Positions 2,423 to 23,727 of a stretch of 64,000 bases of DNA are shown in pieces; position 1 is the first letter of the stretch, and every line of letters begins with the position of its first letter. This DNA comes from Eledone cirrhosa. Taxonomy: Eukaryota. The stretch is from the NCBI GenBank assembly GCA_964016885.1, contig OZ024765.1:3224001-3288000 (forward strand), given 5' to 3'. The notes beneath the pieces were generated by a model, which made no database searches, was not told the origin of the DNA, and saw only the letters and a list, made by a program, of their open reading frames with translations. A program made the position numbers and the translations under genes.

Positions 2423-3055
2423 CCGTGACAACTGGAAAGACGTGACAAATAAGGATACACTCTGCTCTCCTTATCAACATTGTCCGAGTCTGAGGACCTT
2501 TCCTCCCTGGTTAAGGAGTGAGATAAAATATTAGGGATCAATCTCTAGCAATAATTTCATTAAATCATATTTAACCAGAGACTGTTATGTCGTGGTTGTT
2601 GCTATATTTTATAGTCGTGGTTTCAATGTTTAACAGGGGTTGTAGAATTAGCTTTATCTAATTATTATCAAACAAAACAGATTTATATATTGTCGCCGTT
2701 GTACGTTAAAATCACATATATATTTATATACACACCAAGGATGGAGGGACGACGGAATTGAAAACCATTATTGCTGAGTACATCACGGCAAGATCTAATA
2801 CACACACACTCTCCCGTATATATTTAATAATCAGCTATGACCATGAAGAAGGTCCCTGTAGATCATCTGGTTGTAGGATCTAATGAACCCGAAAGAAAGT
2901 GAAAATATATTTTATGAAAGCCCCAGAAGAATAAATGTAAACATTGACCCGATTATAGTAGAAATAACAATGAGAAAGCCATGAACGCCAGCACATCTAT
3001 TTTGCTTGGAAATTAAAAGTAGGTTTATAAATATTAATTTTTTCTTATGTTCTTG

Positions 3056-3120
3056 TATCTGTTTGGTAGGTGTTAGAGACTATGTAGACACTGATGTGGT
3101 GTTCAATCTCAGTCCGAATC
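3056..3120 (+). ncRNA. Pol III-like two-hairpin cassette, copy A (A box partly deleted; pseudogene-like)
   Basis: Preceded by GAAAGCCATGAACGCCAGCACATC (2974-2997) and AAAAGTAGGTTTATAAATATT (from 3015). Body is ...GGTAGGTGTTAGAGAC...GTTCAATCTCAG. Confidence 0.4.
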
Positions 3121-3184
3121 TGTACTATATATTTTTAAATTAAAATTTTTCTCTAGTAAAGTAAAAAATGAAATTATTATCTAT

Positions 3185-3260
3185 AGACTTTGACTGAAAT
3201 CGAAACCCAGAGCAGGTTCTCTACCGTCTCTAATACCTACCATTAGGCCACGGAGACAGA
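3185..3260 (-). ncRNA. Pol III-like two-hairpin cassette, copy B
   Basis: Minus strand TCTGTCTCCGTGGCCTAATGGTAGGTATTAGAGACGGT...GGGTTTCGATTTCAG has A box TGGCCTAATGG and a B-box-like motif. Upstream TTTATAAATATT at about -30. Confidence 0.55.
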
Positions 3261-3324
3261 TATGAAAACAGTGTGTAAATTAATATTTATAAAGTTACTT
3301 TTTTATTTTTGTTTTATACTATAA

Positions 3325-3414
3325 AAAATATAATACGACACACTGCCAGTGATTGAACCCCGGACCTGGACCTCCACCGGCTCTTATACTTACCACTAGG
3401 CTAAAGGGACGGTT
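3325..3414 (-). ncRNA. Pol III-like two-hairpin cassette, copy C
   Basis: Minus strand ACCGTCCCTTTAGCCTAGTGGTAAGTATAAGAGCCGGTGGAGGTCCAGGTCCGGGGTTCAATC... followed by a T6 run. Upstream AAAGTAGGTTTATAAATAT. Confidence 0.55.
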
Positions 3415-3460
3415 ACAGAAACTTACTTAAAAATTGATATTTATAAACCTACTTTTTCAT

Positions 3461-3635
3461 TACTAGAAAAAACCGGAAGTGGAGAAAATTGAAAAACATC
3501 TTCTTTTTCTTCCTCTGATTTTTTTTTATCCAAAATTTGGATTTAAGTCAGAGACGAGTTATCGTTCGTGGCAAAAATCAGAGGAAGAAAAAGAAGAAGT
3601 TTTTCAATATTCTCCACTTCCGGTTTTTTCTAGTA
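3461..3635. mobile_element. 63-bp inverted repeat (foldback / TA-flanked MITE-like); also at 8010-8184 and 12578-12752
   Basis: Arms 3461-3523 (TACTAGAAAAAACCGGAAGTGGAG...) and 3573-3635 (...CTCCACTTCCGGTTTTTTCTAGTA) have 2 mismatches (1 in units 2 and 3) and a 49-bp spacer. Confidence 0.8.
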
Positions 3636-3671
3636 TAGGTAAGTAAATATTAATTTTCAAAAAATTTTTGT

Positions 3672-3748
3672 AACCGTCCCTGTGGCCTAATGGTAAGCAC
3701 TAGAGACGGTGGAGATCCTGATTTAGGGTTCGATTTCCGTTAGCTTTT
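3672..3748 (+). ncRNA. Pol III-like two-hairpin cassette, copy D
   Basis: ACCGTCCCTGTGGCCTAATGGTAAGCACTAGAGACGGTGGAGATCCTGATTTAGGGTTCGATTTCCGTTAGCTTTT: A box, B box GGTTCGATTTC and a T4 run. Confidence 0.55.
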
Positions 3749-6700
3749 ATACTAATAACTGCGTATTTGTTTCTTTTATTAAGTAAGATTTGAACTAATA
3801 ATGCTGTACTTTGTAGTAATGTCCCATATTATATTCAACATATTTTAATTAGAATTTTTTTTTTTTATAAAAGAAAGAACAAAAAACCTTATTGAAATTA
3901 AGAAATGAATTTTATTCAGTAAAGTTGTTTTTATTTTGTTTTCACTTCATTAACTGCTGAATACGTCTTTTGTTTTTGTTTTTGATTCTTTCTAACCATT
4001 GTTTACTGTGAATGGTGACTGAACGAACCTGGATTATTACCAAGTTTCACTGGATGATTGTATTATTTTGTTGTCAGTGGACATCTGGACATCTATCTAA
4101 ATACCTGGAATAAACACAAGGTGTGTGTCTTACGTAACATTTCATTTTAATGTCTGATGTTCCTGTATTTCACATTTAAAATGTAACCAAAAATAAACAA
4201 GACAGGGACGCTACATCAAAATAAACCACACAGACGAGGTACGAATAATCTAAAATTAATTTTAACAAACTATAAACGATGTTTAAAGAGAGACGAACAT
4301 TAAAATAGGATTTCAAACAAACACGTAAACACAAAGACAATTACAGCCGCCATAATCTAATATCTGAAGATCAACATTTTTCACGATAGAAATAAAACTA
4401 AATAAGTAAAGTTTAGTGGCCCCTGATTTACTTGTTTTAATTTCATTTTGATAATCTGTATTCTGTAGACATATATTTATGATTTTAATGATGAAATTTC
4501 CTCTTGTCTTTAAAAGATTATTACTTATAAAAATTATAATAGTCACCTCCTCCTCTCGATTAATATATAGCATCATTCGAGGTAGCTTACCCACAGGGGT
4601 TCCTCAACTGGGCGGTTTCAACTGTTGGGTGGGCGATGAGCAGCTGAACAGAAAATTGAGGGCCATTGGAAACTTTGGTGGCCGATATAGAATTTTGAGA
4701 TTTAAGAAGGTATGCTACCCGAAAACCTATTCAAGGAATATATGCAAAGAACCTGAATAAATATCAGGAAGCTAATTGGGAAAATTAAACCAGGAACAAA
4801 CATTTACGAAACATATTTGGTATACTTTGGAATATTTACTATACAGGTGGCTGCTGGAACATTTTTTCATGTGAATGTGGGAAATGACGCCAAAATATTT
4901 GGCAACCCTTGGCTCACACCTTACTAAATGTTCTGGAGACAAGCCTCTTAGCTATATATCATAGTTCTTCAATCCTTCATCTTCCACAGTTGGTGAAGTA
5001 TTTCGATTTGATATGACGATCGCAGAGTTAGATTTAGGACGTGGTGGCGTTCATGGGTTTCTTAGTGTTGTTACTAGAAAGGGTCGACTCTGTCTTTCAC
5101 ACTTCAGGTTTTTTCATGAATTAAATATCCATTTTCTTTCTGATCGGTCTAACAATGATTTGAACCTACAATGACTCCGTCTGTAATAATGTTCTCTTAT
5201 TTGAAATATGCCATACCTAACTCCCGTGTCTGTGTGAAAAATATTCCAACTTAGAGCGACGTGCCCGTAAATTGTTTAGCCCGATTCCTATATATAGATA
5301 ATGTGTAATATTTGAACCTTCATGGAGGGTCTTTGCCGTAATTTCCCGTAACTCCGACTAGAAGTCATTATGTAGTTTTTTCGTCCGTTAAAAATAATGA
5401 TTAAAACAATTCTATATCCACCTCTTCATCACATATTATATTATTTCCACCAATAACTACACTATATCCTTAAATATGACACCAAGACATATAATTTGTA
5501 AATAAAAGATAAAATATTAAAACCTCAATTTTTAAATAATTTTACCCCCACCTTTGTGTTCTCAGTGTTTAGATTAACCCATAATTTTATGATTTTGGAG
5601 CATATAACTTATAGTACCAGTCATGTACTGGGATCAATTTAACGGATTGGTTCCTCCCCGCAAATTACTTGACTTTTGCCTAAGTAAGACATACTCACAG
5701 AATGTATCGATGTATATGTATGAATGTATATATATATTAGTATATTTTATGTTTACAATAAAAATAGACAAACAATTTAATGATAATATGAAATGAAATT
5801 ATTATTATTTATTAATAATATTTTTATTGTTTTCACTGCATTAACTTCTGAGTGTGACTTTGTTTTTCTTACTATTTTCTACTGTAAATGGCGGCTTAAT
5901 TGGATTATTACTAAGGTTTACTGGATTGTGGTGTTTCTTTATTGTTTTATATTTCAATCAGTGGACATCAGGATAGCTTTCTATATACCTGGGATAAATG
6001 TAAACAGTACTGACTTTCATCTGCAGTTCAATGGTGATGTCTTCTTATATTTTCATTTACTTCTGCAATACTGTATATTGTAGTCTTTTCATTATTTTAA
6101 ATATTTCTATCATGTCACTCGTTTGATATATCTCCCGGAAAGATATAGTTATTCAGAGCTTTACATTGGAATAGTGTACTACTATTTAAATATTAGTCCT
6201 TTAAATATATATTTCTATCATGTCCCCCCCCCCCTCTTAGATTGCAATCCCTAAAGTTTAACATCTTTCTTTAGAAGACAGATTTCTTAATAATTCTGGT
6301 GTTTTCTGTTTTGTTCTTTTCTGGATTCCTTCAATAGCTTCTCCGTATTTTCTGAAGTCGTCTGACCATGCCCCCAAAACAATATTCTAGGTCGTATCAC
6401 ACATATCATTCAACTAGTGTTTTAGACCTCTCGACATTTAGCTAGGCAAAGGAATGTTTTATTATTCTTATCATCTGAATTCCTTTTTTTTCTTCAACAT
6501 GTTTAGCCATCTTTAAAATCATATTCATACATATTCACAATTCCTCGTGGAGGGGTATAAGAGACATGTATAAATATAGCTGCATATTACTACAAAATAA
6601 CTTGAACCATATCGCGAAACATTTTGTAAAGTATCTCTGTAATTATTCTCATTTCGATTTTCTGTAGAATGTATTGACGTTTAAGATAGAGACAATTGCC

Positions 6701-7604
6701 CTTCTTCTAATAATCTCTTTGTCCATTCCATGTTTTAGTCTCACAAAATATTGTTAATGCAAGATTTTGCTCTAATGTAATAAATGTTACTTTTAAAAGA
6801 CCGAAGTTCTCAATTTTCTTCTTTCTCTTGTATATTGATATCTAAAGGATGACAAATGTATGAATTATGTGATAGGGAGGAAAAAAAAAGCCACGACCTT
6901 CTTCTCTCGTTACAGAAGGCTAACTGACAACGTCTTTCGCAGGAGTGACTAGTACTACTGCCTTTTATATACCGTGACAACTGGAAAGACGTGACAAATA
7001 AGGATACACTCTGCTCTCCTTATCAACATTGTCCGAGTCTGAGGACCTTTCCTCCCTGGTTAAGGAGTGAGATAAAATATTAGGGATCAATCTCTAGCAA
7101 TAATTTCATTAAATCATATTTAACCAGAGACTGTTATGTCGTGGTTGTTGCTATATTTTATAGTCGTGGTTTCAATGTTTAACAGGGGTTGTAGAATTAG
7201 CTTTATCTAATTATTATCAAACAAAACAGATTTATATATTGTCGCCGTTGTACGTTAAAATCACATATATATTTATATACACACCAAGGATGGAGGGACG
7301 ACGGAATTGAAAACCATTATTGCTGAGTACATCACGGCAAGATCTAATACACACACACTCTCCCGTATATATTTAATAATCAGCTATGACCATGAAGAAG
7401 GTCCCTGTAGATCATCTGGTTGTAGGATCTAATGAACCCGAAAGAAAGTGAAAATATATTTTATGAAAGCCCCAGAAGAATAAATGTAAACATTGACCCG
7501 ATTATAGTAGAAATAACAATGAGAAAGCCATGAACGCCAGCACATCTATTTTGCTTGGAAATTAAAAGTAGGTTTATAAATATTAATTTTTTCTTATGTT
7601 CTTG

Positions 7605-8297
7605 TATCTGTTTGGTAGGTGTTAGAGACTATGTAGACACTGATGTGGTGTTCAATCTCAGTCCGAATCTGTACTATATATTTTTAAATTAAATTTTTTC
7701 TCTAGTAAAGTAAAAAATGAAATTATTATCTATAGACTTTGACTGAAATCGAAACCCAGAGCAGGTTCTCCACCGTCTCTAATACCTACCATTAGGCCAC
7801 GGAGACAGATATGAAAACAGTGTGTAAATTAATATTTATAAAGTTACTTTTTTATTTTTGTTTTATACTATAAAAAATATAATACGACACACTGCCAGTG
7901 ATTGAACCCCGGACCTGGACCTCCACCGGCTCTTATACTTACCACTAGGCTAAAGGGACGGTTACAGAAACTTACTTAAAAATTGATATTTATAAACCTA
8001 CTTTTTCATTACTAGAAAAAACCGGAAGTGGAGAAAATTGAAAAACATCTTCTTTTTCTTCCTCTGATTTTTTTTTATCCAAAATTTGGATTTAAGTCAG
8101 AGACGAGTTATCGTTCGTGGCAAAAATCAGAGGAAGAAAAAGAAGAAGTTTTTCAATTTTCTCCACTTCCGGTTTTTTCTAGTATAGGTAAGTAAATATT
8201 AATTTTCAAAAAATTTTTGTAACCGTCCCTGTGGCCTAATGGTAAGCACTAGAGACGGTGGAGATCCTGATTTAGGGTTCGATTTCCGTTAGCCTTT
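7605..8297. ncRNA. Unit-2 copy of the four-cassette cluster (A+, B-, C-, hairpin, D+)
   Basis: Near-identical to 3056-3748. Confidence 0.55.
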
Positions 8298-11200
8298 ATA
8301 CTAATAACTGCGTATTTGTTTCTTTTATTAAGTAAGATTTGAACTAATAATGCTGTACTTTGTAGTAATGTCCCATATTATATTCAACATATTTTAATTA
8401 GAATTTTTTTTTTTTATAAAAGAAAGAACAAAAAACCTTATTGAAATTAAGAAATGAATTTTATTCAGTAAAGTTGTTTTTATTTTGTTTTCACTTCATT
8501 AACTGCTGAATACGTCTTTTGTTTTTGTTTTTGATTCTTTCTAACCATTGTTTACTGTGAATGGTGACTGCAACGAACCTGGATTATTACCAAGTTTCAC
8601 TGGATGATTGTATTATTTTGTTGTCAGTGGACATCTGGACATCTATCTAAATACCTGGAATAAACACAAGGTGTGTGTTTTACGTAACATTTCATTTTAA
8701 TGTCTGATGTTCCTGTATTTCACATTTAAAATGTAACCAAAAATAAACAAGACAGGGACGCTACATCAAAATAAACCACACAGACGAGGTACGAATAATC
8801 TAAAATTAATTTTAACAAACTATAAACGATGTTTAAAGAGAGACGAACATTAAAATAGGATTTCAAACAAACACGTAAACACAAAGACAATTACAGCCGC
8901 CATAATCTAATATCTGAAGATCAACATTTTTCACGATAGAAATAAAACTAAATATGTAAAGTTTAGTGGCCGCTGATTTACTTGCTTTTAATTTCATTTT
9001 GATAATCTGTATTCTGTAGACATATATTTATGATTTTAATGATGAAATTTCCTCTTGTCTTTAAAAGATTATTACTTATAAAAATTATAATAGTCACCTC
9101 CTCCTCTCGATTAATATGTAGCTTACCCACAGGGGTTCCTCAATTGGGCGGTTTCAACTGTTGGGTGGGCGATGAGCAGCTGAACAGAAAATTGAGGGCC
9201 ATTGGAAACTTTGGTGGCCGATATAGAATTTTGAGATTTAAGAAGGTATGCTACCCGAAAACCTATTCAAGGAATATATGCAAAGAACCTGAATAAATAT
9301 CAGGAAGCTAATTGGGAAAATTAAACCAGGAACAAACATTTACGAAACATATTTGGTATACTTTGGAATATTTACTATACAGGTGGCTGCTGGAACATTT
9401 TTTCATGTGAATGTGGGAAATGACGCCAAAATATTTGGCAACCCTTGGCTCACACCTTACTAAATGTTCTGGAGACAAGCCTCTTCGCTATATATCATAG
9501 TTCTTCAATCCTTCATCTTCCACAGTTGGTGAAGTATTTCGATTTGATATGACGATCGCAGAGTTAGATTTAGGACGTGGTGGCGTTCATGGGTTTCTTA
9601 GTGTTGTTACTAGAAAGGGTCGACTCTGTCTTTCACACTTCAGGTTTTTTCATGAATTAAATATCCATTTTCTTTCTGATCGGTCTAACAATGATTTGAA
9701 CCTACAATGACTCCGTCTGTAATAATGTTCTCTTATTTGAAATATGCCATACCTAACTCCCGTGTCTGTGTGTGTGAAAAATATTCCAACTTAGAGCGAC
9801 GTGCCCGTAAATTGTTTAGCCTGATTCCTATATAGAGATAATGTGTAATATTTGAACCTTCATGGAGGGCCTTTGCCGTAATTTCCCGTAACTCCGACTA
9901 GAAATCATTATGTAGTTTTTTCGTCCGTTAAAAATAATGATTAAAACAATTCTATATCCACAGTTATATACACCTCTTCATCACATATTATATTATTCCC
10001 ACCAATAACTACACTATATCCTTAAATATGACACCAAGACATATAATTTGTAAATAAAAGATAAAATATTAAAACCTCAATTTTTAAATAATTTTACCCC
10101 CACCTTTGTGTTCTCAGTGTTTAGATTAACCCATAATTTTATGATTTTGGAGCATATAACTTATAGTACCAGTCATGTACTGGGATCAATTTAACGGATT
10201 GGTTCCTCCCCGCAAATTACTTGACTTTTGCCTAAGTAAGACATACTCACAGGATGTATCGATGTATATGTATGAATGTATATATATATTAGTATATTTT
10301 ATGTTTACAATAAAAATAGACAAACAATTTAATGATAATATGAAATGAAATTATCATTATTTATTAATAATATTTTTATTGTTTTCACTGCATTAACTTC
10401 TGAGTGTGACTTTGTTTTTCTTACTATTTTCTACTGTAAATGGCGGCTTAATTGGATTATTACTAAGGTTTACTGGATTGTGGTGTTTCTTTATTGTTTT
10501 ATATTTCAATCAGTGGACATCAGGATAGCTTTCTATATACCTGGGATAAATGTAAACAGTACTGACTTTCATCTGCAGTTCAATGGTGATGTCTTCTTAT
10601 ATTTTCATTTACTTCTGCAATACTGTATATTGTAGTCTTTTCATTATTTTAAATATTTCTATCATGTCACTCGTTTGATATATCTCCCCGAAAGATATAG
10701 TTATTCAGAGCTTTACATTGGAATAGTGTACTACTATTTAAATATTAGTCCTTTAAATATATATTTCTATCATGCCCCCCCCCCCCTCTTAGATTTATCT
10801 CCTCTAAATCTGCAATCCCTAAAGTTTAACATCTTTCTTTAGAAGACAGATTTCTTAATAATTCTGGTGTTTTCTGTTTTGTTCTTTTCTGGATTCCTTC
10901 AATAGCTTCTCCGTATTTTCTTAAGTCGTCTGACCATGCCCCAAAACAATATTCTAGGTCGTATCACACACATCATTCAACTAGTGTTTTAGACCTCTCG
11001 ACATTTAGCTAGGCAAAGGAATGTTTTATTATTCCTATCATCTGAATTCCTTTTTTTTCTTCAACATGTTTAGCCATCTTTAAAATCATATTCATACATA
11101 TTCACAATTCCTCGTGGAGGGGTATAAGAGACATGTATAAATATAGCTGCATATTACTACAAAATAACTTGAACCATATCGCGAAACATTTTGTAAAGTA

Positions 11201-12172
11201 TCTCTGTAATTATTCTCATTTCGATTTTCTGTAGAATGTATTGACGTTTAAGATAGAGACAATTGCCCTTCTTCTAATAATCTCTTTGTCCATTCCATGT
11301 TTTAGTCTCACAAAATATTGTTAATGCAAGATTTTGCTCTAATGTAATAAATGTTACTTTTAAAAGACCGAAGTTCTCAATTTTCTTCTTTCTCTTGTAT
11401 ATTGATATCTAAAGGATGACAAATGTATGAATTATGTGATAGGGAGGGAAAAAAAAAAGCCACGACCTTCTTCTCTCGTTACAGAAGGCTAACTGACAAC
11501 GTCTTTCGCAGGAGTGACTAGTACTACTGCCTTTTATATACCGTGACAACTGGAAAGACGTGACAAATAAGGATACACTCTGCTCTCCTTATCAACATTG
11601 TCCGAGTCTGAGGACCTTTCCTCCCTGGTTAAGGAGTGAGATAAAATATTAGGGATCAATCTCTAGCAATAATTTCATTAAATCATATTTAACCAGAGAC
11701 TGTTATGTCGTGGTTGTTGCTATATTTTATAGTCGTGGTTTCAATGTTTAACAGGGGTTGTAGAATTAGCTTTATCTAATTATTATCAAACAAAACAGAT
11801 TTATATATTGTCGCCGTTGTACGTTAAAATCACATATATATTTATATACACACCAAGGATGGAGGGACGACGGAATTGAAAACCATTATTGCTGAGTACA
11901 TCACGGCAAGATCTAATACACACACACTCTCCCGTATATATTTAATAATCAGCTATGACCATGAAGAAGGTCCCTGTAGATCATCTGGTTGTAGGATCTA
12001 ATGAACCCGAAAGAAAGTGAAAATATATTTTATGAAAGCCCCAGAAGAATAAATGTAAACATTGACCCGATTATAGTAGAAATAACAATGAGAAAGCCAT
12101 GAACGCCAGCACATCTATTTTGCTTGGAAATTAAAAGTAGGTTTATAAATATTAATTTTTTCTTATGTTCTT

Positions 12173-12865
12173 GTATCTGTTTGGTAGGTGTTAGAGACTA
12201 TGTAGACACTGATGTGGTGTTCAATCTCAGTCCGAATCTGTACTATATATTTTTAAATTTAAATTTTTCTCTAGTAAAGTAAAAAATGAAATTATTATCT
12301 ATAGACTTTGACTGAAATCGAAACCCAGAGCAGGTTCTCCACCGTCTCTAATACCTACCATTAGGCCACGGAGACAGATATAAAAACAGTGTGAAAATTA
12401 ATATTTATAAAGTTACTTTTTTATTTTTGTTTTATACTATAAAAAATATAATACGACACACTGCCAGTGATTGAACCCCGGACCTGGACCTCCACCGGCT
12501 CTTATACTTACCACTAGGCTAAAGGGACGGTTACAGACACTTACTGAAAATTGATATTTATAAACCTACTTTTTCATTACTAGAAAAAACCGGAAGTGGA
12601 GAAAATTGAAAAACATCTTCTTTTTCTTCCTCTGATTTTTTTTTATCCAAAATTTGGATTTAAGTCAGAGACGAGTTATCGTTCGTGGCAAAAATCAGAG
12701 GAAGAAAAAGAAGAAGTTTTTCAATTTTCTCCACTTCCGGTTTTTTCTAGTATAGGTAAGTAAATATTAATTTTCAAAAAATTTTTGTAACCGTCCCTGT
12801 GGCCTAATGGTAAGCACTAGAGACGGTGGAGATCCTGATTTAGGGTTCGATTTCCGTTAGCTTTT
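12173..12865. ncRNA. Unit-3 copy of the four-cassette cluster
   Basis: Near-identical to 3056-3748. Confidence 0.55.
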
Positions 12866-15800
12866 ATACTAATAACTGCGTATTTGTTTCTTTTATTAAG
12901 TAAGATTTGAACTAATAATGCTGTACTTTGTAGTAATGTCCCATATTATATTCAACATATTTTAATTAAAATTTATTTTTTTTATAAAAGAAAGAACAAA
13001 AAACCTTATTGAAATTAAGAAATGAATTTTATTCAGTAAAGTTGTTTTTATTTTGTTTTCACTTCATTAACTGCTGAATACGTCTTTTGTTTTTGTTATT
13101 GATTCTTTCAAGAACCATTGTTTACTGTGAATGGTGACTGCAACGAACCTGGATTATTACCAAGTTTCACTGGATGATTGTATTATTTTGTTGTCAGTGG
13201 ACATCTGGACATCTATCTAAATACCTGGAATAAACACAAGGTGTGTGTTTTACGTAACATTTCATTTTAATGTCTGATGTTCCTGTATTTCACATTTAAA
13301 ATGTAACCAAAAATAAACAAGACAGGGACGCTACATCAAAATAAACCACACAGACGAGGTACGAATAATCTAAAATTAATTTTAACAAACTATAAACGAT
13401 GTTTAAAGAGAGACGAACATTAAAATAGGATTTCAAACAAACACGTAAACACAAAGACAATTACAGCCGCCATAATCTAATATCTGAAGATCAACATTTT
13501 TCACGATAGAAATAAAACTAAATATGTAAAGTTTAGTGGCCGCTGATTTACTTGCTTTTAATTTCATTTTGATAATCTGTATTCTGTAGACATATATTTA
13601 TGATTTTAATGATGAAATTTCCTCTTGTCTTTAAAAGATTATTACTTATAAAAATTATAATAGTCACCTCCTCCTCTCGATTAATATGTAGCTTACCCAC
13701 AGGGGTTCCTCAACTGGGCGTTTTCAACTGTTGGGTGGGTGATGAGCAGCTGAACAGAAAATTGAGGGCCATTGGAAACTTTGGTGGCCGATATAGAATT
13801 TTGAGATTTAAGAAGGTATGCTACCCGAAAACCTATTCAAGGAATATATGCAAAGAACCTGAATAAAAATCAGGAAGCTAATTGGGAAAATTAAACCAGG
13901 AACAAACATTTACGAAACATATTTGGTATACTTTGGAATATTTACTATACAGGTGGCTGGTGGAACATTTTTTCATGTGAATGTGGCAAATGACGCCAAA
14001 ATATTTGGCAACCCTTGGCTTACACCTTACTAAATGTTCTGGAGACAAGCCTCTTCGCTATATATCATAGTTCTTCAATCCTTCATCTTCCACAGTTGGT
14101 GAAGTATTTCGATTTGATATGACGATCGCAGAGTTAGATTTAGGACGTGGTGGCGTTCATGGGTTTCTTAGTGTTGTTACTAGAAAGGGTCGACTCTGTC
14201 TTTCACACTTCAGGTTTTTTCATGAATTAAATATCCATTTTCTTTCTGATCGGTCTAACAATGATTTGAACCTACAATGACTCCGTCTGTAATAATGTTC
14301 TCTTATTTGAAATATGCCATACCTAACTCCCGTGTCTGTGTGTGTGAAAAATATTCCAACTTAGAGCGACGTGCCCGTAAATTGTTTAGCCTGATTCCTA
14401 TATATAGATAATGTGTAATATTTGAACCTTCATGGAGGGTCTTTGCCGTAATTTCCCGTAACTCCGACTAGAAGTCATTATGTAGTTTTTTTCGTCCGTT
14501 AAAAATAATGATTAAAACAATTCTATATCCACAGTTATATACACCTCTTCATCACATATTATATTATTTCCACCAATAACTACATTATATCCTTAAATAT
14601 GACACCAAGACATATAATTTGTAAATAAAAGATAAAATATTTAAACCTCAATTTTTAAATAATTTTACCCCCACCTTTGTGTTCTCAGTGTTTAGATTAA
14701 CCCATAATTTTATGATTTTGGAGCATATAACTTATAGTACCAGTCATGTACTGGGATCAATTTAACGGATTGGTTCCTCCCCGCAAATTACTTGACTTTT
14801 GCCTAAGTAAGACATACTCACAGAATGTATCGATGTATATGTATGAATGTGTATATATATTAGTATATTTTATGTTTACAATAAAAATAGACAAACAATT
14901 TAATGATAATATGAAATGAAATTATTATTATTTATTAATAATATTTTTATTGTTTTCACTGCATTAACTTCTGAGTGTGACTTTGTTTTTCTTACTATTT
15001 TCTACTGTAAATGGCGGCTGAGAGGAAATTGGATTATTACTAACGTTTACTGGATTGTGGTGTTTCTTTATTGTTTTATATTTCAATTAGTGGACATCAG
15101 GATAGCAAAGTTGTAATTCTAAGTGTTTTTCCTTGGTATAGGTACTAATGTTGATATGTCCAAATCCTGACATTTATCTGGAATAACATAGTAATATTTG
15201 TCTTGCTGTTTTCTTTAACATGGTTCTTTAAATTCAAACTTATAGATATTAACAATTGATGGGGAGGGGTATATTTGGCGCCTATTTACCTCAAAATTCG
15301 ATGTCAAAACCTGCTTGCATTTTATATATTCAGGGTACGAATATAATAATTAAAGTATATATGTATATATATTCCATGAATAAATATAGTTGCATACTAA
15401 CTCTACCTCGGAACATTTGTTTTCAAAATACGTTTAGACTTATGTCCAGAAATTTATTGTAAAGTGTCTCTGTAAGGAATCCATTTCGATTTTCAGTAGA
15501 TTATATTGCTGTTGAAGATGCAGTCATTTGTCCTTCTTATAATAACCAATTTGTCTTGCAATGGTTCGTATTGTTGCTTCGTCCATTCCATGTTTAGTGT
15601 CCCAAAGTATCGTTAATTCAAAATTTCGTTCTAATGTAATAAATGTTATTTTTCAAAGTTTGACATTCTCACATTAATTCTTTCTCTTCTATATTGTTAT
15701 CTAATGGATTAAACAATGTTTGTTGTGAGAGGTAGGACTAACACGACCGTCTTTCACCGCTGCAGGCAGCTAACTGGCAGTGTGCTTAGCTGACAACGGT

Positions 15801-16431
15801 GAACATCACGTGTTTAGTGTTAGGTCCCAGCAAGCTGTTATTTCTATACTGCGTTAGCTAGAGTCGTATCAATAGAGTACACACCTGTCTTCTGATCAAT
15901 ATTCTTCGAATTCGAGTACCTTTCCTCCTTGAGAAAGTCGTGAGATAAAGTTACAGGATTTAATCCCTACCAAGAATTAAGTAAGTTATTTTAAACCAGA
16001 GACTCTTGTGTCGTCCGGGGCTTCAATCTTTAGTTAGGATTGTAGTATAAACAAAGACAAACAGATGTATATAGCGCCGTTGTACGTTCAAATCATAAAT
16101 ACACAGGCACACACGAAGGATTGGGGAGTCGTGATTGCTGAGAAAATATGTGAGATATAATCTAACAAGCAGACACATCTATGCCTTTAATGGTCAGGTA
16201 TGGCATTTGAAGAACATCTTTGCCGATCATCTGATTGTAGGATGAAATCAACCCTAGAGAGATGAAAAACAAAATCAAGCTCTATTTTATGAAAGCCCCA
16301 GAAAAATTAAGACCTATGTAGACCCCTTTGTAGCATTAAAAAGACCGAGAAAGTTATGAACGCCACCACATCAATTTTGTTTTCAAATAGAAAGTAGGTT
16401 TATAAATATCAATTTTCGGTATGTTTGTGTA

Positions 16432-16508
16432 GCCGTCTCGATAGCTTAGTAGTAAGTATTAGAGACGGGGGAGATCCTGCTCTGAGGTTCAATCTCTGTC
16501 AGGATTTA
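16432..16508 (+). ncRNA. Pol III-like two-hairpin cassette, copy E
   Basis: CCGTCTC-GATAGCTTAGTAGTAAGTATTA-GAGACGG hairpin, then ATCCTG-CTCTGAGGTTCAATCTCTGT-CAGGAT hairpin. Upstream AAAGTAGGTTTATAAATAT. Confidence 0.55.
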
Positions 16509-16596
16509 CACTACGGAGATCGTACTAAATTTTCTTCTCTTTTATTTTGTCTCATGAAATACGAGAAAAAAATGTGTAAGGTTTCTCCCTAATTGT

Positions 16597-16668
16597 AAAT
16601 CCTGCTTGAGATGGAACCCTAGACCAGGAGCTCCACCGTCTTCTCTACCTACCTCTGGGTCACCGAAA
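16597..16668 (-). ncRNA. Pol III-like cassette, copy F (convergent with E, more decayed)
   Basis: Minus strand ...GGTAGGTAGAGAAGACGGTGGAGCTCCTGGTCTAGGGTTCCATCTCAAGCAGGATTT. Confidence 0.4.
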
Positions 16669-17352
16669 ATTATAAACCGACTTGGAAAAAAATTGATGTA
16701 GTGGCGTCAATGCCTTTCCCAGTGTTATTGTTGATAAAAAAAAATGGTCGACGTTGTCTTTCATAATTCTGTTCCGTTTATTAAGTAAATCTTGACATTT
16801 TTCTTATAGCTCTAGGGTTGATTTGAACCTACAACGACTCCGTCTGCAATTATATTCACTAACTTCAAACCCGTCATACCTCGTTTGTGTGTGTGAGTCT
16901 GTGTATGTGACAGATTCCAAGTTCGTGTGACGTTCCAGTAAATTTAACATGATCCCTAGATATAGACATAGATAATATGTATGTGTGTAAGATTTGAACT
17001 TACAATGATGTCATTTGCAGCAATGTCCCATAACTTCAACTAGATGGCACTATGTAAATGTATTTTTTTCGTACTTTAAAAATAATAATTAAAAGAAATT
17101 CTATATCCCCACCTGAAGATTGAACTCCTGAGGTCAGCTTCTATTTCATAACGCCAATACCAACATTACAGACTAACAACTAAGCCACCGACACCAACTT
17201 TAACTAAACAATAAAGGATTAAAACCTCAATTTTTAATTTTAAAATTTTATTACTCCAACTTTTTCTGTTTACATTGCAAATCGTGCCGAGTTTAATTTT
17301 CCATTCTATGTTTTTGGAGAAGATAAAATATTGCACCAATCACGGACTGGGT

Positions 17353-17537
17353 GAATTTAATCGATTGGCTTCTTGACGTAAACTTTTTAGAATTTAATTG
17401 ATTGGCTTCTTGACGTAAACTTTTTAGAATTTAATTGATTGGCTTCTTGACGTAAACTTTTTAGAATTTAATTGATTGGCTTCTTGACGTAAACTTTTTA
17501 GAATTTAATTGATTGGCTTCTTGACGTAAACTTTTTA
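17353..17537. repeat. 37-bp minisatellite, 5 copies
   Basis: Unit GATTGGCTTCTTGACGTAAACTTTTTAGAATTTAATT. TTGACGTAAA recurs at 17373, 17410, 17447, 17484 and 17521. Confidence 0.95.
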
Positions 17538-17565
17538 ACTTTTGACTAAGAAAGATATACTTATA

Positions 17566-17608
<43 letters not shown>

Positions 17609-17734
17609 GGGTCCGTCGATCATTGAGTCGGGTAGGATCGATACAGATCGAACCTTGAGCTGATCAGTGGCGAAACGCGCGTCACCTACCAATAAATGTA
17701 ATTAAGGAGTAACCAATCGTCCTTGTTATCCTTT

Positions 17735-17771
<37 letters not shown>

Positions 17772-17840
17772 AACATCTCTCTATAAATACTTACATATAC
17801 ATGCATACATATTTGTATAATTTTATACATACACACACAA

Positions 17841-17883
<43 letters not shown>

Positions 17884-17905
17884 CCACTATATTACTTCGA
17901 CAGTC

Positions 17906-17956
17906 AGCTTCCTGATGATTTCTCATGAATGAAACAGTTCTAGTCCTGTAGAAGCT
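17906..17956 (+). ncRNA. Type I hammerhead ribozyme
   Basis: AGCTTC-CTGATGA-tTTCtcatGAAt-GAAA-CAG ttctagtc CTG-TA-GAAGCT: 6-bp helix I, intact core, GUA triplet. The first helix II pair is a mismatch. Confidence 0.8.
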
Positions 17957-18036
17957 TTTCTATATTAAATATTTATACTGCTTTGTATTGAGTAACTTAT
18001 TTACTGTGGTACCCCTGATTGAACCCAGGATGAACT

Positions 18037-18074
<38 letters not shown>

Positions 18075-18166
18075 CTTTCGTAATCTAAAATACTTTATTT
18101 AAATTTTAATTAAATTATGTTTGCAATAAACAAAAGAAAGGAATTAATGAAACAAAAACGTTATTA

Positions 18167-18400
18167 TTATTTAGTAATTATATTTTTTATTGTTTTCACT
18201 GCATTTACTGCTGGATAGCTCTTGTGTTTTTCTTTACCAGTTTCAACTGGAAATGGCGATTGCAACGAAATTGGATTATTACCAAGATTTACTGGATGAT
18301 GGATTTTCCTGATTGTATTATTTTGCAAACTGTGGACATCTGGACATCTATCCAAATACCTGGAGTAAACGTAAGGTGTGTCCTTTCCACAACAGTTCAT
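18167..18400 (-). pseudogene. Open remnant (77 aa) of a decayed multicopy ORF of unknown identity
   Basis: MNCCGKDTPYVYSRYLDRCPDVH...HHPVNLGNNP... has broken homologs at ~1245-1460 and ~3910-4145 (minus) in each unit. Confidence 0.35.
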
Positions 18401-18824
18401 TTTAATGTCTGATGTTCCAACAGATCACATTTAACCAATCTACGGAAGGAGTAGCGGCACAAATAAACATGACAGGGAGGCCGCATCAAAAGAAACCACA
18501 CAGACGAGGTACGAGTAACCCGAAATTAGTTTTAAAAATATCAACAATGTTTAAACAAAAGCATGAATATATGATTTCAATCAAACACACCAAAGACAAA
18601 AACAATCACAGCCACAATTTAATATCTGAAGATCTACATTTTCACGATATAAATAAAACTACATAGAGTTTAGTGATCCCCGATTTATTTACTCCTAACT
18701 TTATTTTAATAATCTATATTCTGTAGAGATATATTTTCGTTGGTGTATATTACGATTTTGTTGATGAAATTTTCTGTCTTTAGAGCATTAACAATTATTT
18801 TTATAAACAATATTTCTTATAAGC

Positions 18825-18918
18825 AGCTGTCTGAGTTCAAATCCTTACGGGATCAATAAAATAAAGTACCAGTAATACACTGGGATAATTGCTGGCCTTG
18901 TGCCAAAAGTAGAAACAA
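18825..18918 (+). mobile_element. Truncated tRNA-derived SINE
   Basis: GAGTTCAAATCC...ATAAAATAAAGTACCAG...TTGCTGGCCTTGTGCCAAAAGTAGAAAC, flanked by the direct repeat TTCTTATAAGCA. Confidence 0.85.
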
Positions 18919-19379
18919 TTCTTATAAGCAACATAACATATGTCTCCTTTAAATTTACAAGACAAACAGTAAAATATGATTTCAATCAAACACACAAAGG
19001 CCAAGACAATCACTGCCACAATTTAATGCCTAACGATCAACATTTTCACGATATAAATAAAACTAAAGATGTAGAGTTTAGTGACCTCCGATTTATTTGT
19101 TCCTAAATTTATTTTAATCATACATACTCTGTAGAGATATATTTTCGATGATGTATATTACGATTTTGTTGAAATTTTCTCTTGTCTTTAAAACATTATT
19201 TATCATAAGCAACATAATTGTTACTCCACTCTTAGATTTACATTTTCTGGAATATTCTATTAACATATTTCCAAGTCTATTATTTTAAATGTTTATTTAA
19301 TATACATTACGATTTTATTGATGGCTTTTTTCTCGCAATTTATAATTGTAGAAATGACATTACGTTCACTTACAATATA

Positions 19380-19475
19380 TAACTTTTGGCATTGGTCAGC
19401 AATTATCCCAGTGTATTACTGGTACTTTATTTTATCGACCCCGTCAGGATAAAAGGCAAAATTAACCTCGGCGAA
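19380..19475 (-). mobile_element. SINE 3' portion
   Basis: Reverse complement of the GCCTTTCATCC..GGGGTCGATAAAATAAAGTACCAG core. Confidence 0.85.
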
Positions 19476-19810
19476 TGATAATGAAAATGATTGTGTACAG
19501 TGCTCAGGTGCACTAAAACCCATCAAAGGTGCATGTATATTACATAGAATAATGTACAAATGTCAGGAAAGGGAACAGTGTATGAGTTATGATATACACA
19601 CAGACATGTGTGCGTGTGTATTGAGGGGAAATATCAGATGTAGAAATGCCGAATTTCGGGAAGCATGGAAGTTTTGAAGGGTGCCGTGTACCGACAGTTA
19701 ACAACTGATGCAGGTAGTTTGTTCCATGCTTCAGTAACTCAGCGTAAACAACATGTTTCCGAAAGTCCTGGGAGCTGTACTGTTTTCTGATTTTGTTAGT
19801 ATATCTCATG
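19476..19810 (-). mobile_element. CR1-clade LINE 3' end
   Basis: Encodes ..LRVTEAWNKLPASVVNC..TA.FKTSMLPE (CR1 RV...WN.LP..VV.....FK motif) plus 3' UTR. Same family as 27120-27545. Confidence 0.8.
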
Positions 19811-20122
19811 ACATTATCCTGATTGATATTATATGTTATAAACAGGAGATAAACAAATATACAACAAACACACATCGGAAATATTCAGTAAATAAAGACA
19901 TTAATAAAGGGAACTACACACAATCGTAATACATATCATAGAAAACTCAGCTCTTAAATATTATTAAAAATATACATTATTTAGAAAGAGTGAAGACTAA
20001 ATTGTAAGCAAACCTGGTAACTCTCCCCGTCCGTCGGGGAGATCTCCCAGTCACTTTGGGGTGGGTGAGAGATGTCTTCTCTTGTGAAGATGGGTTTAGC
20101 TTTCATTATGTAAAACCTCCCT

Positions 20123-20347
20123 GTCGCGGGTTCAAGTCCCTCTGCGGGCGTATAAGTTTTTAGGGCGATGGATTGGCAGTATCGGTAGAGTCGGATGCCA
20201 TGCTTTGACGCATAGACTTACGGCCGTTGCCATTCTGAGTTCAAATCCCGCCGAGGTTAACTTTGCCTTTCATCCTTACGGGGTCGATAAAATAAAGTAC
20301 CAGTAATGCACTGGGAAATTGCTGGCCTTGTGCCAAAACTAGAAACA
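20123..20347 (+). mobile_element. Full-length tRNA-derived SINE with a 5' tRNA-3'-half extension and 18-bp TSD
   Basis: TSD ATTATGTAAAACCTCCCT at 20105-20122 and 20348-20365. A box TGGCAGTATCGG, B box GAGTTCAAATCC and the SINE core are present. Confidence 0.9.
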
Positions 20348-20486
20348 ATTATGTAAAACCTCCCTAATTTGCCTCATTTCTTCCTGTTTTGGAACACTTT
20401 TTTTTCATGGTAATCTCCGTTTGGGTTTTTAGAGGTTGGCAGGTCTGATATATTTGTGTGTGTATATATATATATATATACATACA

Positions 20487-20520
<34 letters not shown>

Positions 20521-20566
20521 CATACATGTGTGTGTGTATATATATATCTATATATACATACATACA

Positions 20567-20663
<97 letters not shown>

Positions 20664-20741
20664 GTGTGTGTGTGAGAGACTAAATAAATTTTAGCCTGAT
20701 AGTGGGGTTTAGAACCCTCAAAGAAATGGAAAAAGTTGAGT

Positions 20742-20802
20742 ATTGACGTACACGGGAATCGAACCCACAACCTTGATTATCCAGACCACTGTGTTACCAT
20801 TA
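20742..20802 (-). pseudogene. tRNA pseudogene / tRNA-like fragment
   Basis: Minus strand TAATGGTAACACAGTGGTCTGGATAATCAAGGTTGTGGGTTCGATTCCCGTGTACGTCA has an intact T-arm. The 5' acceptor strand is not recognisable. Confidence 0.5.
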
Positions 20803-21519
20803 GTGTTTAGAGGGGTTAACAGGTCTGCCGTATGTTTAAGCCAGTTTAAACTAGAATGGTGGCGAGATTCATGTTTTTCTTTTAATAGTGTCATTCCAAG
20901 TTCAAATTAACCACAACGCTTCTTACTCGTTCATATTTAGTAGGAATTCTTCTCAAATACTGCATTTTGAAGTCCCTTCATAATATTAAATGTTTCTATC
21001 ATATCACTCGTGTGATTTCCCCCCTCTAAACTTGTAATAAAAAGAGTATTAAACTTTATATTTTCAGGTCTTTAAATCTATATTGACTAGTTTACAAATA
21101 TTTTAATATTTTCACATATTTCTATCACGTCTTCCCTTAGCTTTACGTTTTCCAAAGTTGTAATTCATGGGGGTGTTTACATTGGTATAGTGTACTAATA
21201 TATATATATATTCAAGTCTTTACATTTACCTGGAATAGTGTACTAATATATATATATATTCAAGTCTTTACATTTACCTGGAATAGTGTACTAATACTTA
21301 GCTGTTTTCTATCATGTCTCCCCCTTAGCTTTATCTTTTAATTTTTAAGGTGTTTACATTGGAATAATGTACTAATATATATATATATTTTCAAGTCTTT
21401 ACATTTATATTGACTAGAGTACTAATATTTTGATATTGTATATATTTTTATCCGGTCTCCTCATAGAATTATCCCCTCTAAAGTTCTGAGGGTTTTCACA
21501 TCAGAATATTTTCAACTTA

Positions 21520-21690
21520 CCGTATTTCCCGGCGCCGAAGACGCTTGGTCCTCAAAGACGCACTCTAATTTTGACAACCAAAAATTAAAAAGTAAATAAA
21601 TAAACAACCTTCGACCTCCAGGACGCATAGTAGATTTTTGAGACTTATTCTAGGGAAAAAAAGTAGCATTTTTGATGCCGGGAAATATGG
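21520..21690. mobile_element. Tc1/mariner-superfamily (Tc2/pogo-like) MITE
   Basis: TA-CCGTATTTCCCGGC ... GCCGGGAAATATGG-TA: TIRs with TA duplication. Confidence 0.8.
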
Positions 21691-23444
21691 TAAATGGAAC
21701 AGTGTGCTAATATTTAAATATTCTAATGGTGTGATTCGAAACTCTTTAAATCTCCCTTCACAGGACATATTTCGTAATAATTCTCATGTTTAATGTTTTG
21801 TTTTTCTCTGAATTCCTTCAATATTTTGTTAGTCTTTTCGGAGGTCGGATAACCTTGACCGTAAATATTTTTAATGTTGTCGCACATATCATTTAACTAA
21901 ACTTTTAAAATTTTCTGCACTTAGTAAGGAAAAGGAATGTTTAATTATGTCTATCATTTCACTTGCTTTTTTTCCTTAACCTTTTTACCCACCTTTAAAT
22001 TCAAATGTATGTATATTCCTAATTCTTCAGAGAGGGATGTACGAAGCTCCTTTTTACCTCAAAATTCGATGCCAAAATCTTGAATTTTATACATTCGATG
22101 TACGAATCTATTAATTAAACTAGATATGTATATACAAGCCATGTACATATATATATATGCATATTAACCCTTCTCCCAACTTTTGGTGGTTAAAAAAATA
22201 TGGGGCGCCTTTCTACCTCAAAATTCGATGTCAAAACATTTACGTTTTACACATTTACTGTACGAATATAATAATATATATGTATATACTAGCCATGTAT
22301 AAATATAATTGCATATTAACTCTCTTCAAATACATTTTTTTTTTTTTTTCAAAATAAGGGGAGTTTTATATCGCTAAAAATCCTGTATGAGGTCTCCGTA
22401 AGTGTTCCATTTCAATAAATTTCTCATTTCGATGTTCAGAAGATTATATTGCCGTTGAAGATGTAGTCAATTGTCTTAATAATAAACTTGCCTCGGAATT
22501 GTTCTTATTTTTGTCTCGTCCATTCCATGTTTAGTGTCACAAACTATCGTTAATTCAAAATGTTGTTCTAATGTAATAAAAGTTACTTTTCAAAATCTCA
22601 CATTGTCGCATTCATTCTTTCTCTTGTGTATTGTTATCTAATGAATAAAGAAAACAATGTGGTCTGTGAGAGGTAAAAATAACACGCCCTTCTTCCTCGG
22701 CTGGAAAAACCTTACTGGCGGTGTGGCGAACATCACGTGCTATTTATACTGCACGTTGATTGGAAAGACGCACCAACCCAGGATATACACCTTACTCCTT
22801 AAAATTCTCCGAGTTCCTTTCTTTCCTGAATAAACAGTGAGATAAAGTGACAGGGTTCAATCCCTGCCAAGAATTTCAGTAGGTTTATTTTTAAACAAGG
22901 GACTTTTATGTCGTCGTTACTTTAAAGTGTATTCAGGGTTTCAATCTTTAGTTGGGATTGTAGTATTACTTTTATTTAATTGTAAACAAACAAAGCAGGG
23001 TGTATATAGCTTCGTTGTACGTTCAAATTACACACACACAGAAATATATATATATATATGTATATATATTTCTATATCTATCTATCTATATATATATCTA
23101 TATAAAGGTTTGAGGGGTGGCAAAATTGAAGAGTCACTATTGCTGAGCACACTAATTTAAGATCAAATCTAACACACAGACACACACACATCTATGCCTT
23201 TAGTTGTCATGTATGACAGTTGAGGAACATCACTGCAGATCAGCTGGTCATAGGTTCAAATCAACCATAGATAGATTAAAAAAAAACAAGGGTTTTATTG
23301 TATTGAAGCCCCAGAAAAATAAAAGCCAATGTTGACCCCTTTGTAAATTTAATAATACTGAGAAAGCCATGAACGCCACCACATCAAGTTTGCTTCCAAA
23401 TAAAAAGTAGGTTCATAAATATTAATTTTCAGTGTATTTTTGTA

Positions 23445-23530
23445 GCCGTTTTCGGTGGCTTATGGTAGATATTAGAGACAGTGGAGATCCTGGTCTGAGG
23501 TTCGATCTCAGCGTGTCTGATCAAGTTTTT
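23445..23530 (+). ncRNA. Pol III-like two-hairpin cassette, copy G
   Basis: GCCGTTTTCGGTGGCTTATGGTAGATATTAGAGACAGTGGAGATCCTGGTCTGAGGTTCGATCTCAG...TTTTT. Upstream motif at 23362-23385 and AAAGTAGGTTCATAAATATT. Confidence 0.55.
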
Positions 23531-23559
23531 CACTTTTATATTTTACCACTAATAGAATA

Positions 23560-23646
23560 AAAAAAAAAACCGTAAGACACAGAAATTGAACCCCAGACCA
23601 GGATGTCCACCGTCTCTAATACCTACCAATAGGCCACCGAAACGGA
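23560..23646 (-). ncRNA. Pol III-like two-hairpin cassette, copy H (convergent with G)
   Basis: Minus strand CCGTTTCGGTGGCCTATTGGTAGGTATTAGAGACGGTGGACATCCTGGTCTGGGGTTCAATTTCTG...ACGG then a long T run. Confidence 0.55.
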
Positions 23647-23727
23647 TACAAAAGCACACTGAAAATTAATATTTATAAACCTACTTTATTTCCAAACAAA
23701 AATTGATGTAATGCCTTTCTCAGTGTC

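What the first reader, a model, noticed from the sequence alone, without database searches (positions are those of the whole stretch)
2974..23700. Multicopy family of ~80-nt Pol III-type cassettes that fold into two hairpins rather than a tRNA
Seen: about 16 related copies (4 per 4.56-kb unit x3, plus 16432/16597 and 23445/23560). Most have AAAGTAGGTTTATAAATATT ~30 nt upstream, an A box (TGGCCTAATGG-like), a B box (GGTTCRAT) and often a T-run. Several also have GAAAGCCATGAACGCCACCACATC at about -84 to -61. No acceptor or anticodon stems form. Instead hairpin 1 is CCGTYTC..GCYTA-NNNN-TARGT..GAGACGG, and the variants mostly keep pairing or G-U (GCTTA/TAAGT, GCCTA/TAGGT, CCGTTTC or CTGTCTC/GAGACGG). 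Hairpin 2 has the T-loop at its tip (ATCCTG..GAG-GTTCAAT-CTC..CAGGAT in copy E). Established: hybrid upstream plus internal Pol III promoters typify vault RNA, tRNA-Sec and viral EBER-like RNAs, and SINE copies do not normally carry shared upstream flanks. Inference: an unannotated small ncRNA gene family spread by DNA-level duplication.
Basis: partly seen in the sequence, partly recalled or inferred. Interest (0 to 1): 0.8.

Follow-up and report, generated by a model that had tools for sequence, protein, structure and literature searches.

The report
Transposon-spread tRNA-like small RNA genes
This octopus-like genome holds well over a thousand copies of a short, likely tRNA-derived gene with a TATA box, spread by DNA duplication and by a small DNA transposon; a few copies that look RNA-derived suggest it was once transcribed, and its promoter is better conserved than its predicted hairpins.

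Summary
The 16 cassettes are real and belong to a genome-wide family: at least 1,771 exact TATA-block matches against 0 for the control. Each full copy has a TATA block 30 nt before the predicted start, A and B boxes and a T-run. None has this genome's U6/tRNA-Sec PSE (0 of 368). The family is not tRNA, tRNA-Sec or vault RNA; the real vault cluster lies elsewhere and is unrelated. It is collinear with tRNA-Arg (small margin). Spread is at DNA level: tandem and segmental duplication, inverted pairs, and capture by a hAT-type MITE (14-bp TIR, 8-bp TSD). Seven of 90 sampled copies lack the upstream flank and start within about 3 nt of the predicted +1; four end in a LINE 3' tail. That is indirect evidence of past transcription. 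The two-hairpin fold is not shown to be selected: covariation is marginal, RNAalifold finds no structure, and the RNA body diverges as fast as its flanks while the TATA block does not. Verdict: new variant of the 4.5SH/4.5SI/snaR kind; the promoter is likely kept, an RNA function is unproven.

The parts
1..13700 (.). Last three units of a 4.56-kb tandem array, four cassettes per unit
   Evidence: 97-99.8% identity between units; array continues at least 30 kb upstream and is absent 44 kb upstream and beyond in 3 of 3 stretches tested
2974..3136 (+). Copy A: upstream 24-mer, TATA block 3016-3035, body with A box deleted (repeats at 7523-7685, 12092-12254)
3170..3301 (-). Copy B: TATA variant 3282-3301, predicted +1 at 3261; convergent with A (repeats at 7719-7850, 12288-12419)
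3323..3455 (-). Copy C: TATA block 3436-3455, predicted +1 at 3414 (repeats at 7872-8004, 12441-12572)
3632..3763 (+). Copy D: truncated TATA block, predicted +1 at 3672; closest to tRNA-Arg(CCG) of the 4 copies aligned (repeats at 8181-8312, 12749-12880)
16349..16535 (+). Copy E: 24-mer, TATA block 16391-16410, predicted +1 at 16431, A box +12, B box 16486-16493; best two-hairpin fold
   Evidence: (z=-3.21)
16582..16718 (-). Copy F: degraded, TATA-to-start spacer deleted; convergent with E
16235..16834 (.). Imperfect palindrome (63% arm identity) holding E and F
   Evidence: self-BLAST; long hairpin seen
23362..23535 (+). Copy G: 24-mer, TATA block 23404-23423, predicted +1 at 23444, B box 23499-23506, T5 at +83
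23556..23690 (-). Copy H: TATA block 23668-23687, predicted +1 at 23647, B box 23585-23592, long T-run at +79; convergent with G
23172..24009 (.). Imperfect palindrome (67-79% arm identity) holding G and H, interrupted by a SINE fragment at about 23730-23835
   Evidence: rows for L011, the window's own locus
15100..24950 (.). Older two-unit segmental-duplication block shared in part with loci on C15, C22, C24, C25 and C26; carries no MITE ends
   Evidence: 76-93% identity blocks; empty MITE matches only microsatellite in the window

Best explanation
A likely tRNA(Arg)-derived RNA polymerase III gene with a TATA block, A box, B box and T-run was multiplied at DNA level by inverted, tandem and segmental duplication and by capture in a hAT-type MITE, and what appears to be kept is its promoter rather than its predicted RNA fold. 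Predicted working: TFIIIC binds the A and B boxes, TFIIIB sits on the 28-bp TATA block, and Pol III starts about 28-30 nt downstream and stops at the T-run, giving a 75-100-nt RNA (inferred from anatomy and established type 2 promoter biology). Shown: anatomy, copy number, vehicle and conservation pattern. Inferred: past germ-line transcription, from flank-less copies that start at the predicted +1 and end in LINE or SINE tails. Most likely selected effect (inferred, untested): Pol III machinery occupancy or transcription at clustered copies, acting like a tDNA-type chromatin boundary; MITE-borne copies would be mostly neutral passengers.
For: TATA-to-A-box distance is 41 nt in 302 of 368 copies (78 of 95 non-redundant), putting TATA at -30 as in this genome's U6 and tRNA-Sec genes (-30/-31 in 9 of 12). 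Among 8 diverged window-type units the TATA blocks differ by 3.9-5.4% from the column majority, the RNA bodies by 16.2-16.5% and the flanks by 15.5-17.2%. In a 7-copy cluster on C4 mean pairwise identity is 0.94 for the TATA block, 0.70 for the body, 0.65 upstream. In 124 copies found by RNA body alone, the TATA block (0.81) and A box (0.86) exceed the whole body (0.73). Seven of 90 sampled copies lack the flank and begin at about -3 to +3; 4 end in a LINE 3' tail, 2 join a SINE, one with a 12-bp duplication. U6-LINE and U6-SINE chimeras form this way, including with RTE-like LINEs (PMC4476161, section 10 read). MITE: 8-bp TSD in 3 of 5 and 6 of 7 two-ended elements, 0 of 20 cross-pairs; empty MITEs exist. 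Copy D matches tRNA-Arg(CCG) at 46 of 69 collinear positions (my count).
Against: The units were partly found by BLAST seeds and 2 of the 7 C4 copies by an exact TATA pattern, which favours intact TATA blocks; an AT-rich block without CpG may also mutate slowly. In an ungapped set filtered for intact A/B boxes the TATA block was not more conserved than RNA positions (10.7-19.5% vs 6.7-20.9%). In MITE copies the right TATA block (4.2%) is barely below the MITE arm (5.5%). Two subfamilies show an excess of pair-keeping changes (p=0.024 and 0.001, uncorrected for CpG or relatedness), which favours some RNA constraint. Only 1 of 7 retrocopies is clearly nearest to window-type copies, 2 tie and 4 are nearest MITE-left copies. 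An eighth chimera (L280) starts near +8 inside a minisatellite. The tRNA-Arg margin is small (41.4 vs 39.3 and 39.0) in a set of 44 tRNAs enriched for Arg. The boundary role has no direct test here.
Confidence: 0.52

Rival explanations
1. A functional structured small RNA, like rodent 4.5SH or BC1, is made from a subset of master copies; the many decayed copies hide its covariation.
For: Hairpin 1 is 80.5% paired across 69 copies and far above slid controls. One pair (columns 16/25) changes C-G to U-A in 8 copies and G-U to G-C changes are common. Pair-keeping excess in two subfamilies. Retrocopies run to the T-run at about +89 to +94 in 2 cases. 4.5SH is a 94-nt RNA from hundreds of genes in 4-5-kb tandem units with a TATA-like box, and has a reported function (PMC10137851, passages).
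Against: Paired cells 75.1% vs 74.0% shuffled (7/500), covariation score 6/500, pair and type counts not significant (251/500, 22/500). RNAalifold gives no pairs. Paired sites vary as much as or more than unpaired ones in 4 of 4 subfamilies. The structure was read off these sequences, so beating slid controls is expected. The D-stem swap is ordinary tRNA heritage.
Confidence: 0.22
2. A wholly neutral tRNA pseudogene that hitch-hiked on duplications and a MITE; it was transcribed because it kept a promoter, and the TATA-block conservation reflects ascertainment, low mutability or gene conversion between palindrome arms.
For: RNA body diverges at flank rate and faster than the MITE arm (10.1% vs 5.5%). 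Deletions of A box, spacer or body are common. A second tRNA-like cassette in this genome is also dispersed with its flanks.
Against: TATA block stays near-invariant between old, same-strand neighbours whose equally AT-rich flanks have diverged (0.94 vs 0.62-0.65). Rearranged copies repeatedly break just upstream of the block.
Confidence: 0.2
3. It is the head of an already catalogued octopus repeat (OK, OR1, OR2 or a Repbase/Dfam entry).
For: tRNA-derived octopus SINEs are described (cited in PMC4824008 and PMC4758252, passages); that OR1/OR2 derive from tRNA-Arg is recalled.
Against: 83 of 90 sampled copies keep upstream flank and none of the 90 was seen to carry a shared SINE body; the 7 flank-less copies have different 3' junctions. 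The profile does not hit the common SINE in the window.
Confidence: 0.06

Closest known systems
Rodent 4.5SH RNA genes (PMC10137851, PMC3440375; passages read)
   Same: About 90-nt Pol III unit; A and B boxes plus TATA-like box at about -31/-24; hundreds of genes inside 4-5-kb tandem units; lineage-restricted.
   Different: 4.5SH derives from 7SL/B1, is proven expressed and has a reported function; no inverted pairs or DNA-transposon capture in the passages read.
Rodent 4.5SI and BC1 RNAs (same papers; BC1 structure known here only from a reference title)
   Same: tRNA-derived, type 2 promoter with upstream element, cloverleaf replaced by stem-loops.
   Different: One to three genes rather than thousands; BC1 is the master of a SINE, whereas here retrocopies are rare (7 of 90).
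Primate snaR genes (PMC3045588, passages read)
   Same: Pol III small RNA family spread mainly by segmental duplication into tandem arrays; fast-evolving.
   Different: Alu-derived; no TATA mentioned in the main text (0 occurrences); proven protein partner.
Helenus / Cassandra TRIMs (PMC10886601, passages read)
   Same: Mobile elements that carry a Pol III promoter derived from a small RNA gene together with its flanks.
   Different: Those are LTR retroelements with direct repeats, PBS and 4-5-bp TSD. Here the vehicle has terminal inverted repeats and an 8-bp TSD, and also exists without the cassette.
Vault RNA (RF00006)
   Same: Similar length, A box near the 5' end, TATA-like upstream, clustered genes.
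   Different: No model match; no conserved terminal stem; the genome's own vault cluster is a different sequence.

Membership tests
tRNA (RF00005) | Cloverleaf with acceptor and anticodon stems | tested here: not met
   ARAGORN 0; no tRNA hit even at E up to 10 on two short stretches; acceptor-like helix 55.6% paired
tRNA-derived element | A and B boxes at tRNA spacing, collinear with a tRNA | tested here: met
   46 of 69 identical to tRNA-Arg(CCG); mean score 41.4 vs 28.6 shuffled; isotype uncertain
Type 2 Pol III gene with TATA box (4.5SH/4.5SI kind) | TATA at about -30, A box at +12, B box, T-run | tested here: met
Type 2 Pol III gene with TATA box (4.5SH/4.5SI kind) | Discrete RNA made now by Pol III | not testable with these tools
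   no RNA run could be laid; retrocopies give only indirect, past evidence
Type 2 Pol III gene with TATA box (4.5SH/4.5SI kind) | Conserved RNA sequence or structure | tested here: inconclusive
U6 / tRNA-Sec (PSE-dependent) | PSE at about -78 to -60 | tested here: not met
   9 of 12 U6/tRNA-Sec loci have it, 0 of 368 cassettes; motif read by eye from those loci
Vault RNA | RF00006 match and terminal stem | tested here: not met
SINE | Copies start at +1 without shared flank and share a body and tail | tested here: not met
   83 of 90 keep upstream flank; 7 exceptions have unlike 3' junctions
SINE | Match to OK/OR1/OR2 or other library consensus | not testable with these tools
   Dfam, Repbase and SINEBase not available; the 1994 paper was not seen
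Non-autonomous hAT transposon (vehicle of the dispersed subfamily) | Short TIRs and 8-bp TSD (definition recalled) | tested here: met
   14-bp TIR; TSD within 1 mismatch in 3 of 5 and 6 of 7 (one is a TA run, one repeats a locus); 0 of 20 cross-pairs
Non-autonomous hAT transposon (vehicle of the dispersed subfamily) | A related autonomous element with hAT transposase | tested here: inconclusive
   longest ORFs of 6 long elements looked like LINE fragments or non-coding frames, judged by eye; partner not searched for
Non-autonomous hAT transposon (vehicle of the window copies) | TIRs or MITE arms around the window copies | tested here: not met

The most novel reading that the evidence does not exclude
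An undescribed cephalopod small-RNA gene family: a tRNA-Arg gene turned into a TATA-driven two-hairpin Pol III RNA, duplicated into convergent palindromic pairs and then broadcast to more than a thousand sites by a DNA transposon, so seeding the genome with TFIIIB/TFIIIC landing pads and long hairpins, while a core of clustered copies still makes a functional RNA or chromatin boundary.
Probability: 0.25. Interest if true: 0.8.

Novelty: new variant of a known kind. Interest (0 to 1): 0.55.

Why it matters
If the promoter is live, this is an invertebrate counterpart of the lineage-restricted Pol III RNAs (4.5SH, snaR, BC1) at far higher copy number, and a case of a DNA transposon, not a retroelement, dispersing complete Pol III genes. 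Such sites could act as boundaries or Pol III sinks in a genome known (recalled) for heavy rearrangement. The LINE-tailed retrocopies have the layout from which SINEs are thought to arise. The family is directly testable, with the start and end predicted to a few bases. I found no description of it in searches, but repeat libraries could not be checked.

Tried and rejected
No RNA holder listed for 16200-16900, so expression is untested. Two runs of unrecorded kind, held as contigs, were laid; they cover all 30 bins but may be the assembly's own source and are not counted as support. A metagenome scan for the TATA pattern gave 0 hits, so no other species could be compared. Earlier scan notes: none. 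Rfam at relaxed E-values gave plant miRNA hits due to palindromes and microsatellites, and no tRNA or vault hit on a cassette. Relaxed ARAGORN calls with introns on subfamily-2 loci were rejected as inconsistent. A protein-coding or transposase role for the duplicated unit: no Pfam hit better than E 0.07 in 4 frames tested. The 24-mer as PSE: rejected. Vault identity: rejected. Left-hand MITE rates were set aside because rearranged copies inflate them (17.8% body, 13.4% TATA, 24.2% upstream). L213 was flagged as flank-less by script but dropped by eye, as it keeps a partly deleted flank. For alignment A1 I used 69 of 95 non-redundant copies, leaving out those with large indels, mis-anchored starts or extra B boxes. 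A tree of 40 copies supports four clades (C4 cluster in part, subfamily 2, MITE-left, MITE-right) but does not resolve window-type copies or the order of events. A recalled likeness to silkworm tRNA upstream elements found no paper and is not used. No supplements were opened.
Full report
Observation. The window holds 16 related cassettes: four in each of three 4.56-kb tandem units, a pair at 16431+/16673- and a pair at 23444+/23647-. Twelve have the TATA 20-mer, six the upstream 24-mer and nine an exact GGTTCRAT; all eight copy types have a run of four or more T at +74 to +102. ARAGORN and Rfam at gathering score find nothing. The window lies on contig C26 of a 3.0-Gb genome that I take to be an octopus from its repeats (inference).

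The family is genome-wide. The 23-mer TATA block has 460 exact matches against 0 for the control and a degenerate 25-mer has 1,771 against 0. All 30 loci fetched for the 23-mer carry the cassette. The distance from the TATA to the A box is 41 nt in 302 of 368 copies kept from 422 profile hits. That places the TATA at -30, as in this genome's own U6 and tRNA-Sec genes. Those genes share a PSE at -76 to -79 in 9 of 12 loci; 0 of 368 cassettes have it. The promoter is therefore of the type 2 plus TATA kind described for 4.5SH and 4.5SI (PMC10137851, passages), not the U6 kind.

Origin. Among 44 distinct tRNA sequences from this genome the best match is tRNA-Arg(CCG), mean score 41.4 against 28.6 shuffled, followed by Arg(CCT) 39.3 and Ser 39.0; copy D is collinear with it at 46 of 69 positions by my count. 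The set was enriched for Arg by my own search, so tRNA origin is firm and the isotype tentative. It is not vault RNA: the genome has 14 vault matches over the cut-off on C3 that share nothing with the cassette.

How it spread. Most copies sit as convergent pairs in imperfect palindromes of 63-79% arm identity. Four settings were seen. (1) Window type: a 3.5-4.6-kb unit in tandem arrays and segmental duplicates on the smaller contigs. (2) Dense alternating clusters with two or three B boxes per copy. (3) A same-strand cluster of eight diverged copies on C4. (4) An interspersed element with 14-bp terminal inverted repeats. Its right end has 338 exact matches; 15 of 30 such loci carry cassettes within 1.5 kb. 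Target duplications of 8 bp were found in 3 of 5 and 6 of 7 two-ended elements, against 0 of 20 cross-pairs. These features define a non-autonomous hAT element (definition recalled). Empty versions exist (L144, L160, L169), and three composites have an inner and an outer right end with the duplication fitting the outer one (L174, L180, L185). So the MITE captured an existing pair and moved it. The window copies are not inside this MITE.

Was it transcribed? I examined 90 of 198 matches to an 18-mer at the 5' end of the body. Eighty-three keep upstream flank; seven do not, and these begin within about 3 nt of the predicted start, whereas DNA-level truncations are scattered over hundreds of bases. 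Four of the seven end in the short 3' tail of a LINE: two match the end of an RVT_1-coding element, one matches the LINE end at window 26623-26675, and one matches the same kind of tail in L085-L087. Two join a SINE, one with a 12-bp duplication; one has no recognised tail. Such chimeras are known for U6 with several LINE clades and SINEs (PMC4476161, abstract and section 10). Four are nearest to MITE-left copies, one to window-type copies and two tie. An eighth chimera starts near +8 and does not confirm the start. This is evidence of past germ-line transcription, not of present activity.

Is the fold selected? On 69 of 95 non-redundant copies the two-hairpin structure is 75.1% paired against 74.0% in shuffles (7/500), with covariation score 6/500 and non-significant pair and type counts; the tool warns that related sequences reach such values without structure. 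RNAalifold returns no pairs. Two of 14 single copies have z below -2. One-sided changes keep the pair in 36-43% of cases; this exceeds a simple neutral expectation in two of four subfamilies (p=0.024, 0.001; uncorrected), but paired sites are no less variable than unpaired ones in any. A cloverleaf-like alternative does worse.

What is conserved. In eight diverged window-type units the RNA bodies differ by 16.2-16.5%, the flanks by 15.5-17.2% and the TATA blocks by 3.9-5.4%. In seven C4 copies identity is 0.94 for the block, 0.70 for the body and 0.62-0.65 for its neighbours. In 124 copies found by the body alone the block (0.81) and A box (0.86) exceed the body (0.73). Against this: ascertainment favours the block; an ungapped set filtered on A/B boxes shows no excess; and in MITE copies the block is close to the arm (4.2% vs 5.5%) while the body decays faster (10.1%), as passengers would.

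Reading. The best account is a tRNA-derived Pol III unit whose promoter has been kept in old clusters while its product is loosely constrained, pointing to occupancy or transcription itself as the selected effect (0.52; the boundary role is inferred and untested). A functional RNA from a few master copies (0.22), pure neutrality (0.20) and an already catalogued repeat (0.06) remain open. It works like the 4.5SH/4.5SI/snaR class in promoter design and DNA-level amplification (PMC10137851, PMC3440375, PMC3045588; passages) but is a member of no Rfam family tested. It differs from Helenus-type elements (PMC10886601, passages) in riding a DNA transposon. Searches found no description; Dfam, Repbase and the 1994 octopus SINE paper were not seen.

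Noticed in passing
G000:C3:221183987-221251257 (L281-L286); also C4:22848500 and C2:223304784: A cluster of 14 vault RNA matches over the Rfam cut-off, with terminal stem, T-run and upstream TATA but no canonical B box; two further single copies just under the cut-off.
   Followed up: partly
L097, L099-L107, positions 1430-1600: Ten dispersed tRNA-like copies with varying anticodons share near-identical upstream and downstream flanks on six contigs: a second tRNA-like cassette apparently moved as DNA.
   Followed up: no
L046 (G000:C1:441186189-441189271): A tRNA-Ser(TGA) tandem array whose 1.68-kb unit includes the left half of the MITE and one cassette.
   Followed up: partly
L041:218-864: A cassette-bearing MITE lies about 640 bp upstream of one of the two intact tRNA-Sec genes.
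   Followed up: no
L033-L040 (G000:C19:31.78-31.84 Mb): A U6 tandem array; in 3 of 8 fetched copies a SINE replaces the PSE region.
   Followed up: no
L043, L044, L045 at about 1500: 5'-truncated tRNA-Sec copies without the promoter, two carrying the 3' trailer: likely retrocopies of the precursor.
   Followed up: no
window 1411-1497 (+, x3), 15915-15993 (+), 17090-17181 (-), 22812-22890 (+), 20750-20830 (-): Weaker A/B-box-like units inside the same duplicated block, perhaps older relatives or other decayed tRNAs (the last read by eye).
   Followed up: no
window 26623-27070 (-): 3' end of a LINE (open frame, stop, short tail with GAT repeats); RTE clade is recalled, no Pfam hit on this fragment.
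   Followed up: partly
L093:3172-3924 (-), L089: Pif1-like helicase fragments, possibly Helitron, beside subfamily-2 clusters (E 0.0018, under cut-off).
   Followed up: no
G000 C8, C10, C11, C13 (e.g. L085-L087): 10-27-kb periodic arrays, several near contig ends, each unit holding three cassettes and LINE fragments.
   Followed up: partly
window 30570-33708, 46758-53607, 59576-61130: Long minisatellites (29, 42 and 123 bp units); the 29-mer resembles an A-box-bearing tRNA 5' half (by eye).
   Followed up: no
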